DNA of 64,000 nucleotides from an uncultured Bacilli bacterium. Lineage in GTDB: Bacteria > Bacillota_I > Bacilli_A > RF39 > UBA660. Within the stretch, counting starts at the first letter, position 1. Each line of letters opens with the position of its first letter. Below are positions 43,751 through 46,937 of the stretch, in pieces. The stretch covers positions 5,140-69,139 of the forward strand of contig CALVUX010000004.1 of the NCBI GenBank assembly GCA_944363715.1, in the 5' to 3' direction. Position numbers and translations under genes: made by a program. Below the pieces are notes generated by a model. The model made no database searches. It saw only the letters and a list, made by a program, of their open reading frames with translations, and was not told where the DNA came from.

Positions 43751-45238
43751 ATGGAAAAGGTATATTGTTGTATTGATTTAAAGAGTTTTTATGCATCTGT
43801 TGAATGTGTAGAAAGAGGACTTAATCCTTTGAAAACTAATCTTGTTGTTGCCGATAAATCTAGAACAGAAAAGACAATCTGTTTAGCAGTAAGTCCAGCA
43901 TTAAAACAGTATGGTATAGGAGGAAGAGCAAGACTTTTTGAAGTGTTAAGTAAAGTTAAAGAGATAAATAAGATAAGAAGAAAAGATAATGGTTATAAAA
44001 AGTTTACTGATAAATCAGTTAATGATGATATCTTAAAGAAAGATACGACTAAAGAATTAGACTTAATCATCGCTCCTCCTAGAATGGCTCATTATATTGA
44101 TTATTCTGCTAATATTTATAATATCTATTTAAAATATATTGCTAAAGAAGATATATTTGTCTATTCTATAGATGAAGTCTTTATGGATATAACTAATTAC
44201 TTAAAGTACTATAAATTATCTCCTAAAGACTTAATAACTAAAATAATTAAAGATGTCTATGATACAACAGGTATTACAGCGACTGCTGGAATTGGTACAA
44301 ACTTATTTCTTGCTAAAGTTGCTATGGATGTAGTCGCAAAACATACTGAACCTAATCTCTTTGGGGTAAGAATTGCCGAACTTAACGAAATGTCTTATAG
44401 ACAGTTGATATGGAGTCATGTGCCTATTACAGATATTTGGAGAGTAGGTAAAGGTATTTCTAAAAGATTAGAGAAGTATAGTATGTATACAATGGGTGAT
44501 GTTGCAAGATGTTCTATTAATAATGAAGACTTACTATATAAATTATTTGGGGTTAATGCTGAACTTTTAATAGACCATGCTTGGGGTTATGAACCATGTA
44601 CAATAGAATCTATAAAAAACTATAAACCACTTGCCAAAAGTATAAGTAGTGGTCAAGTTTTACAAAGTCCATATTCTTATGATAAGACAAAGTTAATAGT
44701 AAGAGAGATGACTGACTTGCTAGCTTTAGACCTTGTCTCTAAAAAATTAGTAACAGAACAGTTAGTATTAACTATTAGTTATGATATAGATAATATTACT
44801 GATGATTATAATGGAGAAATTACAATAGACCATTATGGACGTGCTATACCTAAGTCTAGCCATGGAACTATTAACTTAGATTATAAAACGTCTTCATCTA
44901 AAATAATTATTGAAGCGATGATTAAATTATTTGAAAGAATAATAAATCCTAAACTGTTAGTTAGAAGAGTTAATATGTGTGCAACTAAGTTAGCAAGTGA
45001 AGAAGATGAAAAATGTAAAGTAAGATATAGGCAATTAGATTTATTTTCATCTTTAGAAGAAAAAGATAATAAGTTAGATTATAATAGAGAAAATTTAAAA
45101 GAAGAAAATAATCTTCAAAATGCTATGTTAAAGATAAAGAAGAAGTATGGTAAAAATGCTATTTTAAAAGGTATGGATTTAGAAGATGGGGCGACAACAA
45201 TGGATAGAAATAGACAGATAGGAGGACATCATGAATGA
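43751..45238 (+). CDS. Y-family (translesion) DNA polymerase, UmuC/YqjW/UvrX-like
   Basis: CIDLKSFYASVECVERG, SIDEVFMDIT and ATAGIGTNLFLAKVAMD are Y-family palm and finger motifs. Followed by a yolD-like gene. Confidence 0.85.
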   Translation: MEKVYCCIDLKSFYASVECVERGLNPLKTNLVVADKSRTEKTICLAVSPALKQYGIGGRARLFEVLSKVKEINKIRRKDNGYKKFTDKSVNDDILKKDTTKELDLIIAPPRMAHYIDYSANIYNIYLKYIAKEDIFVYSIDEVFMDITNYLKYYKLSPKDLITKIIKDVYDTTGITATAGIGTNLFLAKVAMDVVAKHTEPNLFGVRIAELNEMSYRQLIWSHVPITDIWRVGKGISKRLEKYSMYTMGDVARCSINNEDLLYKLFGVNAELLIDHAWGYEPCTIESIKNYKPLAKSISSGQVLQSPYSYDKTKLIVREMTDLLALDLVSKKLVTEQLVLTISYDIDNITDDYNGEITIDHYGRAIPKSSHGTINLDYKTSSSKIIIEAMIKLFERIINPKLLVRRVNMCATKLASEEDEKCKVRYRQLDLFSSLEEKDNKLDYNRENLKEENNLQNAMLKIKKKYGKNAILKGMDLEDGATTMDRNRQIGGHHE

Positions 45239-45629
45239 TTATGACGATATTATAAATATGCCTCATCATGTATCTAAAATAAGAAAGCCTATGTCTTTAC
45301 AAAACAGGTCGGCTCAGTTCGCTCCTTTTTCTGCTTTAACTACTTATGATGAGAAGGTAAGAGAAGTTGCAAGAGAAACATCTAAAAAAATAGAATTAGA
45401 TGATGGTATAAAATTAATGCTTAATGAGAAGTTATGCCTTATAAAAAATGATATAAAACTAAGACCTAGAGTAACAATTACTTACTTTGCTAGAGATAGT
45501 AAGAAAAAAGGGGGATGTTATAAAACTATAACTAGTAATGTTAAAATAGTTGATGAAGTATATAAAAGAATATTTTTAATAGATAATACTATAATATCTT
45601 TTGATAACATAATTGATATTAAACTTTGA
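45231..45629 (+). CDS. YolD-like protein (UmuD-analogue accessory of Gram-positive Y-family polymerases)
   Basis: MPHHVSKIRKPMSLQNRSAQFAPFSALTTYDE matches the YolD family N-terminus. Overlaps the polymerase stop codon. Confidence 0.75.
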   Translation: MNDYDDIINMPHHVSKIRKPMSLQNRSAQFAPFSALTTYDEKVREVARETSKKIELDDGIKLMLNEKLCLIKNDIKLRPRVTITYFARDSKKKGGCYKTITSNVKIVDEVYKRIFLIDNTIISFDNIIDIKL

Positions 45630-45672
45630 TTATATTTTTTTTAAATATGTATATATTATTATTGTATACTAG

Positions 45673-45700
45673 TTGACATTTTTAGAAAAAATAGTATATT
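45673..45700 (+). promoter_or_regulatory. Sigma-A-type promoter of the candidate RNA unit
   Basis: TTGACA, 16-nt spacer, then TATATT. Confidence 0.6.
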
Positions 45701-45707
45701 TATATCA

Positions 45708-45870
45708 CAGATGAGATTACTCATCGTGAAAATGTTTTTCGCTTCTGGATGGTGCGATTAATAAATGATTCCAGTCGGCAATGTTTTTCGCTTCCAGGTG
45801 GTGCGACTAATAAATGATCCTGGTTGAAAATGTTAAAAAACTTCATCATTTATGGTGAAGTTTTTGTTTT
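45708..45870 (+). ncRNA. Candidate structured RNA of about 160 nt: 5' hairpin, two 49-nt tandem repeats each forming a hairpin, and an intrinsic terminator
   Basis: 5' hairpin GATGAG-atta-CTCATC. Repeats at 45731-45779 and 45780-45828. Stems are CTGGA/TCCAG versus CCAGG/CCTGG (three compensatory pairs). Terminator AAAAACTTCA/TGAAGTTTTT plus a T-run at 45836-45868. No Rfam family recognised. Confidence 0.5.
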
Positions 45871-45889
45871 GCACGGAATTTGTAATTTA

Positions 45890-45918
45890 TTGACAAGTTT
45901 TAATTACTAATCTATAAT
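45890..45918 (+). promoter_or_regulatory. Consensus sigma-A promoter for the HExxH gene
   Basis: TTGACA, 17-nt spacer, then TATAAT (both hexamers perfect). Lies 24 nt upstream of the RBS GGGGGA. Confidence 0.75.
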
Positions 45919-45941
45919 AATCACTAATTTAGGGGGATATT

Positions 45942-46937
45942 ATGCGATATATTATACAAATTGGTACTTTATATGATAATTATCATGAAATGAATTTTGG
46001 TTATGTTGGTATTGATTTAAATACAGGAGAAAAACATTATTATTCTAATTATGATAGTAAAGGTAATTGGTCTTTTAGAAGTATAACTGAATTTGATATG
46101 GATAATAAAGAAAAACTAAATCGTTTTTTACGCTCAAATTTATATCATTGTTATTATAATAAAGATGGTAGTGAAAAAATTCCAGAAGATGTAAAATCTT
46201 TAGCATATCAAATGATTGATAAGCATTTAATTTATAATAAACAAAATGACTATCCAATAGATAATTTAGAGAAAAACTTAAATAATTTATCTTTTAAATA
46301 TGTAAGTAATATTTCTTTGTTTGGGGATTTAGGTTTTTCTGGTAGATATATACCAGTAAAGAATACTATTGAAATGCCAATAACTAATATTGATTGGCAA
46401 AGATATGGCGAAGATGAAATAAAGGAAACAGAAGATATATTACTTCATGAGGCAGGTCATTTAAAAGTATCTAACTATTCATTAGATATTAAAAATAAAG
46501 AATTAAAGGTTAGGACAGGATTTTATACTTCAATAGTTAAAGTAGAACCTGTAATGTTAAGTAATGGTGATATATTTTTAAAATTTGAAGGAACTTTAGA
46601 TTTATACAAAAGAGATGAAGATAGAAATTTAGAAGAAGTTATGAATGATTTTGATTGTAAAGAAATAAACCCTAATTTTGTTCCTACATATCCTAATGTT
46701 GGTTATATATTAAACGATTTATGTGATGGTAGATTACAGAAAGCAAGATATTATGATGATGGAATAGAAGAGTTATATGATAGTTTAAATAGATTAATTA
46801 AAGGTAGAGATTTAGTTAATGAATTACTATTAAGTATAGTTGAAACTAATAGGTCTTTTGAAGATAATTATGAGGAGAATGAAGCTCACATGATGAAATT
46901 ATTAAAGAAATATCAACAGGTAAGGAATAGAAGATAA
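45942..46937 (+). CDS. Hypothetical protein with an HExxH zinc-metallopeptidase motif
   Basis: ILLHEAGHL at about aa 166. No signal peptide. No other motif recognised. Confidence 0.5.
   Translation: MRYIIQIGTLYDNYHEMNFGYVGIDLNTGEKHYYSNYDSKGNWSFRSITEFDMDNKEKLNRFLRSNLYHCYYNKDGSEKIPEDVKSLAYQMIDKHLIYNKQNDYPIDNLEKNLNNLSFKYVSNISLFGDLGFSGRYIPVKNTIEMPITNIDWQRYGEDEIKETEDILLHEAGHLKVSNYSLDIKNKELKVRTGFYTSIVKVEPVMLSNGDIFLKFEGTLDLYKRDEDRNLEEVMNDFDCKEINPNFVPTYPNVGYILNDLCDGRLQKARYYDDGIEELYDSLNRLIKGRDLVNELLLSIVETNRSFEDNYEENEAHMMKLLKKYQQVRNRR

What the first reader, a model, noticed from the sequence alone, without database searches (positions are those of the whole stretch)
45673..45870. Stand-alone promoter-to-terminator RNA unit with two 49-nt tandem repeats showing compensatory stem mutations
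Seen in the sequence:
- A TTGACA-16-TATATT promoter.
- A 5' hairpin, GATGAG-atta-CTCATC.
- Two head-to-tail 49-nt repeats (45731-45779 and 45780-45828), plus the first 6 nt of a third.
- A strong intrinsic terminator (45836-45868).

The downstream HExxH gene has its own perfect TTGACA-17-TATAAT promoter after that terminator. The unit therefore looks like an independent RNA of about 160 nt, or a very tight attenuator.

The two repeats differ at 10 of 49 positions. Six of these form three compensated base pairs in a 5-bp stem: CTGGA/TCCAG becomes CCAGG/CCTGG (T:A to C:G, G:C to A:T, A:T to G:C). The stem closes an otherwise conserved 20-nt loop, UGGUGCGAYUAAUAAAUGAU. The UUCGC just 5' of each stem could pair with GCGA in the loop to form a pseudoknot.

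I do not recognise this as any Rfam riboswitch or sRNA family. Tandem, covarying aptamer-like hairpins are reminiscent of tandem riboswitches or of protein-titrating sRNAs.
Basis: partly seen in the sequence, partly recalled or inferred. Interest (0 to 1): 0.62.

Follow-up and report, generated by a model that had tools for sequence, protein, structure and literature searches.

The report
Orphan CptI antitoxin RNA array
The two 49-base repeats are the RNA antitoxin half of a known toxin-antitoxin system (CptIN, type III) whose toxin gene has been deleted, so this is a leftover stand-alone antitoxin RNA gene and not a riboswitch or a new kind of RNA.

Summary
A consensus-like promoter, a 5' hairpin, 2.2 tandem 49-nt repeats with compensated stem changes and a terminator all lie at 45673-45868, and Rfam has no match.

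- Each repeat folds as an H-type pseudoknot. Both stems covary across 73 distinct repeats from related genomes.
- Each repeat shares layout, the AUAAAUG loop core and the UUGA|AA junction with crystallised CptI of Eubacterium rectale.
- In this genome the same repeat family precedes two CptN homologues (PDB 4RMO, E=1e-18).

Congeneric genomes carry polY-yolD-array-cptN at the orthologous site. One (L149) continues into the same HExxH gene. The window has 18 nt where L149 has 971 nt (toxin leader, cptN and an ASCH-like gene). The junction lies at a shared TATTGAC. An independent assembly has the same junction.

So the toxin was deleted and the promoter-to-terminator RNA gene survived. No cognate-type toxin remains in the genome. 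Family-wide, 21 of 50 arrays are toxin-less and 9 have broken toxins, and the orphans show eroding base-pairing.

This is most likely a recent relic. A retained trans-protective role is possible but untested.

The parts
45636..45878 (+). Whole cptI module (promoter to terminator). It is present here and in L008 and absent from the otherwise collinear L009/L010.
   Evidence: Alignment A3; sequences.
45673..45700 (+). Sigma-70-type promoter TTGACA-16-TATATT of the antitoxin RNA.
   Evidence: It is conserved base for base in toxin-linked arrays L149, L146 and L150, and nearly so in L011/L012.
45710..45725 (+). 5' leader hairpin GAUGAG-auua-CUCAUC.
   Evidence: Fold. It is conserved in L146, L149 and L150 and replaced by a different hairpin in L008.
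45731..45779 (+). CptI repeat 1, an H-type pseudoknot. S1 is 45739-45742 with 45754-45757. S2 is 45745-45749 with 45770-45774. The A-rich loop is 45758-45769.
   Evidence: CM 71.5 bits. The layout matches CptI_Er from PMC4627078.
45780..45828 (+). CptI repeat 2, an H-type pseudoknot. S1 is 45788-45791 with 45803-45806. S2 is 45794-45798 with 45819-45823.
   Evidence: CM 72 bits. It is identical to R2 of L012, L146, L149 and L150.
45829..45834 (+). First 6 nt of a third repeat (AAUGUU). It recreates the inter-repeat junction (UUGA|AAAUGUU) that a CptN nuclease would cut to release repeat 2.
   Evidence: Inferred by analogy with the A45 cyclic phosphate and the GA/AAG flanks needed for CptI_Er processing.
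45836..45868 (+). Intrinsic terminator hairpin plus U-run. This is the element that normally sits between antitoxin repeats and toxin gene in type III loci.
   Evidence: Fold. It is identical in L146, L149 and L150, where cptN follows.
45872..45889 (+). Deletion scar. 18 nt (CACGGAAUUUGUAAUUUA) occupy the place of 971 nt that in L149 hold the toxin leader, cptN and an ASCH-like gene.
   Evidence: L008 has the same junction.
45890..45918 (+). Promoter of the HExxH gene. Its -35 box (TATTGAC) is the likely recombination point of the deletion. It is a neighbour, not part of the RNA unit.
45942..46937 (+). 331-aa HExxH protein gene. It is an unrelated accessory neighbour, not a partner of the array.

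Best explanation
Window 45673-45868 is a cptI gene. It is the tandem-repeat RNA antitoxin of a CptIN-family type III toxin-antitoxin system, and its cognate toxin gene cptN has been deleted.

In an intact locus the sequence of events is as follows:
- The promoter drives a precursor of about 160 nt.
- The terminator lets little transcription through to the toxin.
- The CptN endoribonuclease cuts the precursor at the repeat junctions.
- Each ~49-nt unit folds into an H-type pseudoknot that binds and inhibits CptN.

Here a deletion of about 950 bp runs between two TATTGAC motifs. One lies in the toxin leader and the other is the -35 box of the next promoter. The deletion removed the toxin leader, cptN and a small ASCH-like gene, and left the terminator about 20 nt upstream of the HExxH gene's own promoter.

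The surviving RNA gene still has an intact promoter, both pseudoknots and the terminator, so it is probably still transcribed (inferred, not shown). Its cognate-type toxin is no longer in the genome. It is most likely a recently orphaned, functionally idle relic on the usual decay path of toxin-antitoxin loci, where the toxin is lost first and the harmless antitoxin lingers.
For: 1. Identity as CptI
- The same repeat family sits between a promoter and a terminator upstream of 156-161-aa ORFs at C3 and C18 of this genome.
- The C18 protein matches CptN of PDB 4RMO at E=1.1e-18.
- The CptI_Er repeat recovered from Rao 2015 shares the layout. It has a 5-bp S1, a short L1, a ~5-bp S2 and an A-rich loop with the identical core AUAAAUG, which includes the functionally essential A29-U30. 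It also shares the UUGA|AA junction.

2. Pseudoknot
- On 73 distinct repeats, S2 is 95.6% paired and all 5 pairs covary.
- S1 is 87.8% paired and 3 pairs covary. S1 was not in the covariance model.
- Slid controls give 29-45% pairing.

3. Toxin deletion
- Eight congeneric loci carry yolD, then the array, then an intact cptN (L138, L140, L141, L142, L145, L146, L149, L151). In five of them (L140, L141, L142, L145, L146) the end of the polymerase gene, yolD, array and cptN are directly contiguous. In L138, L149 and L151 yolD lies about 1 kb upstream of the array.
- L149 continues into the same HExxH gene (95% identity).
- The L149 array module is 230/236 identical to the window's.
- The window has 18 nt where L149 has 971 nt.
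- The L149 toxin matches 4RMO at E=1.6e-20.

4. Not an assembly artefact
- An independent metagenome contig (L008) has the same junction.

5. No toxin left
- tblastn of the whole genome finds only the C3 and C18 cptN genes and one fragment.
- The window array is 96% and 91% identical to the L012 and L011 arrays, but only 80% and 72% identical to the arrays of the resident toxins.

6. Decay series
- Of 50 arrays in the family sample, 19 have an intact cptN, 9 a broken one, 21 none, and 1 is cut by a contig end.
- 36 of 38 toxin-linked repeats are fully paired, against 18 of 32 orphan repeats.
- Independent toxin replacements or losses are seen in L150, L160 and L161.
Against: - Transcription of the orphan is therefore inferred from sequence only.
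- Both repeats are still perfectly paired and promoter and terminator are intact. This is equally compatible with recent orphaning and with selection to keep the RNA.
- Divergence from L008 is 3 of ~104 nt in the array, against 12 of 332 third codon positions in the neighbouring gene. This is too little to tell neutral drift from constraint.
- The direction of the indel relative to L009/L010, which have no array at all, is not resolved.
Confidence: 0.85

Rival explanations
1. Functional orphan antitoxin. The array is kept because its RNA acts in trans. It might neutralise or buffer the two resident CptN toxins, serve as a decoy substrate for them, or give immunity against addiction by incoming cptIN-bearing elements. 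This would resemble orphan type II antitoxins and the phage pseudo-ToxI.
For: - Promoter, both pseudoknots and terminator are intact.
- The deletion junction is shared with L008, so the orphan has persisted through some divergence.
- Well-formed two-repeat orphan arrays occur in several genera, some in genomes with no detectable cptN.
- The junction motif A|AAUGUU is shared by all arrays, including those of the resident toxins.
- Phage pseudo-ToxI shows that toxin-less type III antitoxins can be functional (PMC5086642).
Against: - CptI RNAs were strictly cognate-specific in all six non-cognate combinations tested by Rao 2015, where toxins were 35-44% identical.
- The window array is only 80% and 72% identical to the arrays of the resident toxins, and its cognate-type toxin is 69% and 49% identical to them.
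- Orphan repeats as a class lose base-pairing, 18 of 32 fully paired against 36 of 38. This indicates relaxed selection.
- The array is absent from close relatives L009/L010 and from 11 of 52 congeners.
Confidence: 0.12
2. Tandem riboswitch or attenuator controlling the downstream HExxH gene.
For: - The unit sits directly upstream of the gene.
- The loop sequence AUAAAUGAU is complementary to AUCAUUUAU in the terminator's 5' arm, which could look like an antiterminator.
Against: - The gene has its own perfect promoter after the terminator.
- HExxH homologues in other contexts have no such repeats.
- L009/L010 have the same gene and promoter without the array.
- The loop-terminator complementarity is absent from L011, L012 and the C3 and C18 loci.
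- The same repeats precede CptN toxins elsewhere.
Confidence: 0.01
3. A new type III pair in which the HExxH protein is the toxin held in check by the CptI-like RNA.
For: The HExxH gene occupies the position normally taken by the toxin, immediately after the terminator.
Against: - It has no similarity to CptN and no match to defence or toxin models.
- 13 homologues are known and none of the four other contexts examined has repeats upstream.
- In L149 the HExxH gene lies downstream of a complete cptIN plus another gene, so the present adjacency was created by a deletion.
Confidence: 0.01
4. The repeats encode small peptides (MFFAS[G/R]WCD followed by two stop codons in each repeat).
For: Each repeat contains an ATG-initiated 9-codon frame, and two of the R1/R2 differences are synonymous in it (sequence).
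Against: - No ribosome-binding site is present.
- The compensating changes on the 3' side lie after the stop codons.
- Family members vary in ways that keep pairing, not coding.
Confidence: 0.01

Closest known systems
CptI antitoxin RNA of the CptIN type III toxin-antitoxin system (Eubacterium rectale CptIN, PDB 4RMO; Blower et al. 2012, PMC3401426; Rao et al. 2015, PMC4627078)
   Same: - Promoter, about 2 tandem direct repeats plus a few nt of a further one, and an intrinsic terminator.
- Each repeat is an H-type pseudoknot with two ~5-bp stems and a long A-rich loop containing AUAAAUG.
- Single-stranded 5' and 3' tails and a UUGA|AA junction.
- Paralogous and orthologous copies are followed by CptN homologues (E 1e-18 to 1e-20 against 4RMO).
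   Different: - The repeat is 49 nt against 45 nt. The 2012 survey range was 40-48 nt.
- L1 is 2 nt instead of 1, and the loop is 11-12 nt instead of 9.
- The two repeats are kept as distinct R1 and R2 types.
- At this locus there is no toxin gene at all.
cptIN loci with truncated toxins but complete repeats and terminator (Bryantella formatexigens, Lachnospiraceae 9_1_43BFAA and others; Blower 2012)
   Same: The antitoxin array and terminator are preserved while the toxin decays.
   Different: Those loci keep a 45-101-aa toxin remnant. Here the toxin ORF is gone completely. Toxin-anchored searches could not have found such orphans.
Pseudo-ToxI of Pectobacterium phage phiTE (reviewed in PMC5086642)
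   Same: A type III antitoxin-like repeat array that exists without an adjacent toxin gene.
   Different: - Pseudo-ToxI is phage-borne, belongs to the ToxI family and has been shown to neutralise a host toxin.
- The window's array is chromosomal and was created by toxin deletion, and no activity has been shown.
Orphan antitoxins of type II systems
   Same: The toxin is lost and the antitoxin gene persists. Possible anti-addiction or cross-talk roles are debated.
   Different: Those are protein antitoxins that often act also as transcription factors. This one is a processed RNA.

Membership tests
CptI (antitoxin RNA of cptIN type III TA loci) | Short tandem direct repeats, about 2-3 copies of 40-48 nt, immediately downstream of a promoter | tested here: met
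   2.2 copies of 49 nt, one nt above the 2012 range. The promoter has 11/12 matches.
CptI (antitoxin RNA of cptIN type III TA loci) | Rho-independent terminator directly after the repeats | tested here: met
   A 13-bp hairpin plus U-run at 45836-45868. It is identical to the terminator that precedes cptN in L146 and L149.
CptI (antitoxin RNA of cptIN type III TA loci) | Each repeat folds as an H-type pseudoknot with a long A-rich loop | tested here: met
   Covariation in both stems on 73 distinct repeats. The loop UAAUAAAUGAU compares with AUAUAAAUG of CptI_Er.
CptI (antitoxin RNA of cptIN type III TA loci) | A CptN-family toxin gene immediately downstream | tested here: not met
   No cptN or remnant lies downstream. 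It is present at the orthologous site in congeners and at paralogous loci C3 and C18. The locus is therefore an orphan cptI, not a complete cptIN.
CptI (antitoxin RNA of cptIN type III TA loci) | The toxin linked to this repeat type is homologous to crystallised CptN | tested here: met
   C18 toxin against 4RMO, E=1.1e-18. L149 toxin against 4RMO, E=1.6e-20.
CptI (antitoxin RNA of cptIN type III TA loci) | The RNA is processed by, binds and neutralises its toxin | not testable with these tools
   Needs kill/rescue and processing assays.
ToxI (Rfam) and other Rfam RNA families, including riboswitches | Match to a curated covariance model | tested here: not met
   No relevant hit at gathering score or at E<=10 on 45600-45960.
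Tandem riboswitch or attenuator | Conserved association with the regulated downstream gene, and an expression platform overlapping the aptamer | tested here: not met
   HExxH homologues lack the element. The gene has its own promoter. The loop-terminator complementarity is not conserved.

The most novel reading that the evidence does not exclude
Toxin-less CptI arrays are not just debris. In these small-genome gut Bacilli they would be retained as stand-alone immunity RNAs. They would be transcribed constitutively and would either neutralise incoming cptIN elements of the same specificity (anti-addiction) or act as decoy substrates that buffer the resident CptN nucleases. This would explain why 21 of 50 arrays surveyed are orphans and why some genomes carry only well-formed orphan arrays.
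Probability: 0.12. Interest if true: 0.55.

Novelty: new member of a known kind. Interest (0 to 1): 0.3.

Why it matters
The finding turns an apparently unknown structured RNA into a member of a published family that Rfam does not cover. A CptI covariance model would prevent repeated rediscovery of this element.

The case is also a cleanly reconstructed example of how a type III toxin-antitoxin locus dies. Orthologous intact, toxin-deleted and empty sites are all available. The toxin went in one ~950-bp deletion, apparently between two promoter -35 boxes, and the RNA gene stayed intact.

In this bacterial family, arrays without an intact toxin outnumber complete loci (30 against 19 of 50). Toxin-anchored surveys therefore under-count type III antitoxin genes. 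Whether such orphan RNAs still protect against related toxins is an open and easily testable question.

Tried and rejected
- Rfam at gathering and permissive thresholds gave nothing relevant.
- My first own-genome pattern search was off by one base and found nothing. A local regex search then found the paralogous arrays.
- HExxH protein as partner toxin. It has no Pfam or PADLOC family. Its homologues in four other contexts have no repeats upstream, and it is rare in the family, 3 of 151 genomes. Rejected.
- Antiterminator idea from the 9-nt complementarity between loop and terminator. The complementarity is not conserved in other arrays. Rejected.
- Looking for yolD-adjacent arrays in the one-genome-per-genus family sample found none. 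The genus-level search did find them.
- Constraint test by comparing window and L008 divergence in the array and in the neighbouring gene. There were too few differences to decide.
- Literature search for described orphan type III antitoxin arrays on chromosomes. Nothing specific turned up in the papers checked. This is not an exhaustive search.

Full report
**1. Observation**

- TTGACA-16-TATATT lies at 45673-45700.
- The hairpin GAUGAG-auua-CUCAUC lies at 45710-45725.
- There are two head-to-tail 49-nt units, 45731-45779 and 45780-45828, plus AAUGUU of a third. TRF gives 45727-45834, period 49, 2.2 copies.
- A 13-bp AU-rich hairpin followed by a U-run lies at 45836-45868. It dominates both the MFE and the centroid fold.

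The two units differ at 10 of 49 positions. Six of these differences turn CUGGA/UCCAG into CCAGG/CCUGG. Rfam gives no relevant hit, either at gathering scores over the whole window or at E<=10 on the region.

**2. The element is a multi-copy family in this genome, linked to CptN toxins**

The window is contig C4 of a 1.40-Mb, 27.5% G+C, 39-contig genome. A local search found the same repeat family on C3, C18 and C7. The covariance model later added a second array on C18 and a weak single copy on C19.

Each array has the same anatomy of promoter, two ~50-nt repeats and terminator.

On C3 and C18 the terminator is followed by ORFs of 161 and 156 aa.
- The C18 protein matches the CptN toxin of PDB 4RMO at E=1.1e-18 over its whole length.
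- The C3 protein weakly matches Pfam ToxN_toxin.

[quoted passage not shown] CptIN is one of the three published families (PMC3401426; PMC4627078).

**3. Comparison with crystallised CptI**

The CptI-WT primer in Rao et al. gives the E. rectale repeat as AAGUUUACCACUGACCGAUAUGUGGUAUAUAAAUGGUCGGGUUGA. It is described there as a 45-nt H-type pseudoknot with a very short L1 and a long A-rich L2 (A27-G35). A29 and U30 are essential, and a 2',3'-cyclic phosphate sits on A45.

The window units read AAUGUUUU-UCGC-UU-CUGGA-UGGU-GCGA-UUAAUAAAUGAU-UCCAG-UCGGC. They show:
- the same order of stem strands, a-b-a'-b';
- an A-rich loop with the identical core AUAAAUG, including the A-U of the kink;
- the same ...UUGA|AA... 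junction after repeat 2.

**4. Covariation**

On the nine repeats first collected, S2 shows changes on both sides in all five pairs and S1 in one pair.

I built a covariance model that encodes S2 only. I then aligned 83 matches from 42 loci, of which 73 are distinct.
- S2 is 95.6% paired and all five pairs covary.
- S1 was not in the model. It is 87.8% paired, and three of its pairs change on both sides, for example CCGC/GCGG and CCAC/GUGG.
- Sliding the partners by 1-3 columns gives only 29-45% pairing.

**5. No toxin follows the window's array**

tblastn with both resident CptN proteins finds only the C3 and C18 genes plus a C-terminal fragment on C18. Nothing is found near the window's array.

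The next gene, at 45942-46937, encodes a 331-aa HExxH protein with its own perfect promoter. It is not a partner of the array.
- It is unrelated to CptN.
- It has no Pfam or PADLOC family.
- It has only 13 detectable homologues.
- In four other genomic contexts it has no CptI-like repeats upstream.
- It occurs in 3 of 151 genomes of the family sample.

**6. What happened at this site**

Three states of the orthologous locus are available.

(a) Empty. L009 and L010 (HExxH 83% identical) run from the yolD stop codon straight into the HExxH promoter. The alignment delimits the extra segment in the window as about 45636-45878.

(b) Complete. Eight species of the same genus carry yolD, an almost identical array and terminator, and an intact cptN with no stop codons (L138, L140, L141, L142, L145, L146, L149, L151).
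- In five of them (L140, L141, L142, L145, L146) the end of the Y-family polymerase gene, yolD, the array and cptN are directly contiguous. In L138, L149 and L151 yolD lies about 1 kb upstream of the array.
- Their toxin is 82-85% identical to the L011 toxin.
- The L149 toxin matches 4RMO at E=1.6e-20.
- In L149 the toxin is followed by a 114-aa ASCH-like ORF and then by the same HExxH promoter and gene (95% identity).

(c) Toxin-deleted. This is the state in the window and in the independent metagenome contig L008 (HExxH 96% identical).

Between the end of the terminator and the TTGACA of the HExxH promoter, L149 has 971 nt and the window has 18 nt. The window's array module is 230/236 identical to that of L149.

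The 18 nt resemble the start of the toxin leader (GAAUUUAUAUAUUGAC in L149). Both deletion end-points carry TATTGAC. A single deletion between these two -35-like boxes is the simplest account; this is an inference.

L008 has the same 18-nt junction with one substitution. The deletion is therefore real and predates the split of the two lineages.

**7. Cognate toxin**

The window's array is 96% identical to the L012 array, whose toxin carries a nonsense codon. It is 91% identical to the L011 array, whose toxin is intact. It is only 80% and 72% identical to the arrays of the resident C18 and C3 toxins.

The L011-type toxin is 69% and 49% identical to those resident toxins. Across toxin-linked loci, array identity and toxin identity correlate (Spearman 0.42; the pairs are not independent).

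Rao et al. found no cross-protection among three CptIN pairs whose toxins are 35-44% identical. Whether 69% identity allows cross-talk is unknown.

**8. How common this is**

The model finds the repeat family in 31 of 151 genera of the family and in 41 of 52 genomes of the genus.

Public records that carry the closest toxins are labelled uncultured Tenericutes or Bacilli gut MAGs, Clostridium sp. CAG:302, CAG:628 and CAG:914, and Candidatus Onthousia.

I classified 50 arrays from the family sample plus this genome:

| Downstream of the array | Arrays |
|---|---|
| Open full-length cptN | 19 |
| Broken cptN (nonsense, frameshift, internal or terminal deletion) | 9 |
| No trace of cptN | 21 |
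| Cut by a contig end | 1 |

Independent loss routes are visible in the genus.
- In L150 cptN is replaced after codon 4 by an HD-domain gene.
- In L160 a TnpB-type gene follows the terminator.
- In L161 only the last cptN codons remain, ahead of a protein with a Fic-type motif.

Among toxin-linked repeats, 36 of 38 have all nine core pairs. Among orphan repeats, 18 of 32 do. As a class, orphans are eroding. Blower et al. had already noted cptIN loci with truncated toxins but complete repeats. Fully toxin-less arrays were invisible to their toxin-anchored search.

**9. Interpretation**

The unit is a cptI antitoxin RNA gene orphaned by deletion of its toxin.

Shown:
- family membership of the repeats;
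- pseudoknot covariation;
- absence of a toxin here and presence at orthologous sites;
- the deletion junction;
- the decay series.

Inferred:
- that the RNA is still made, based on its intact promoter and terminator;
- that without its cognate CptN it is neither processed nor needed;
- that the deletion used the TATTGAC microhomology.

The main rival is that the orphan is kept because it acts in trans on resident or incoming CptN toxins. I rate this about 0.12. Both window repeats are still perfectly paired, but the event looks recent. Against L008, the array shows 3 differences in ~104 nt, all in R1, and the neighbouring gene shows 12 of 332 third-position differences. Orphans in general are decaying.

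One window-specific change is the G at 45778, the base just before the internal junction. It is A in L008, L146, L149 and L150. It might impair separation of the two units. I do not lean on this, because the base before repeat 1 is also G in toxin-linked arrays.

**10. Limits**
- All genomes are MAGs of about 90-97% completeness, so 'no toxin in the genome' carries that caveat.
- The array census rests on regex, covariance-model and tblastn calls with 1.5-kb flanks.

**11. Earlier notes of this scan**

These were seen only after I had stated my own reading. They independently call the same 49-nt repeat family CptIN in other genomes. One describes a complete module after a yolD-like gene, and one describes a decaying toxin. 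This agrees with what I found in L149 and in the decay series.

Noticed in passing
own genome contig C18:120-1331 (minus strand), outside the window: Two cptIN units lie in tandem. The first is an array (1331-1232) followed by only the C-terminal 87 codons of cptN (1202-943). The second is an array (819-720) followed by an intact 156-aa cptN (587-120). The same composite, with a 100% identical toxin, occurs in three congeners (L155-L157). The toxin protein is also 100% identical in MAGs of four other species (L054-L057), which suggests recent horizontal spread.
   Followed up: partly
own genome contig C7:8352-8460 (plus strand), outside the window: A second orphan CptI array lies in this genome. 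Its second repeat is degenerate (GGCCCGCGAG insertion), it has no clear terminator, and a short-chain dehydrogenase gene follows. A weak single repeat is also present on C19:4081-4131.
   Followed up: partly
window 45731-45828, and arrays in L008, L012, L146, L149 and L150: The two repeats of an array are kept as distinct types across loci and genera. R1 has CUGGA/UCCAG and the tail UCGAC. R2 has CCAGG/CCUGG and the tail UUGAAA. R2 is invariant among these loci. Because CptIN is a 2:2 heterotetramer, the complex might use one RNA of each type. This is untested.
   Followed up: partly
L149:1591-1700, L146 and L150 (toxin leaders): Between terminator and cptN this subfamily has a conserved TTGACG...TATATT promoter-like stretch. 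The toxin may therefore have its own promoter and not rely only on terminator read-through.
   Followed up: no
window 45942-46937; L003/L004; L149:2186-2530: The uncharacterised 331-aa HExxH protein has no Pfam family and only 13 homologues. It repeatedly neighbours small ASCH-domain genes (L003, L004, L149). In L001 it lies in a mobile-element context with resolvase, a large serine recombinase and Mob_Pre.
   Followed up: partly
L150:1709-2254; L160:1667-2803; L161:1663-2274; L163:1787-2398: Genes found in place of cptN after otherwise intact arrays are an HD-domain protein (L150), a TnpB-like protein (L160) and a protein with a Fic-type motif (L161 and L163). These look like independent toxin replacement events.
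   Followed up: partly
window 43751-45629: A Y-family DNA polymerase gene (IMS domains) overlaps a yolD-like gene immediately upstream. In five congeners this cassette lies directly upstream of the cptIN insertion (L140, L141, L142, L145, L146). In three more (L138, L149, L151) yolD lies about 1 kb upstream of the array.
   Followed up: partly
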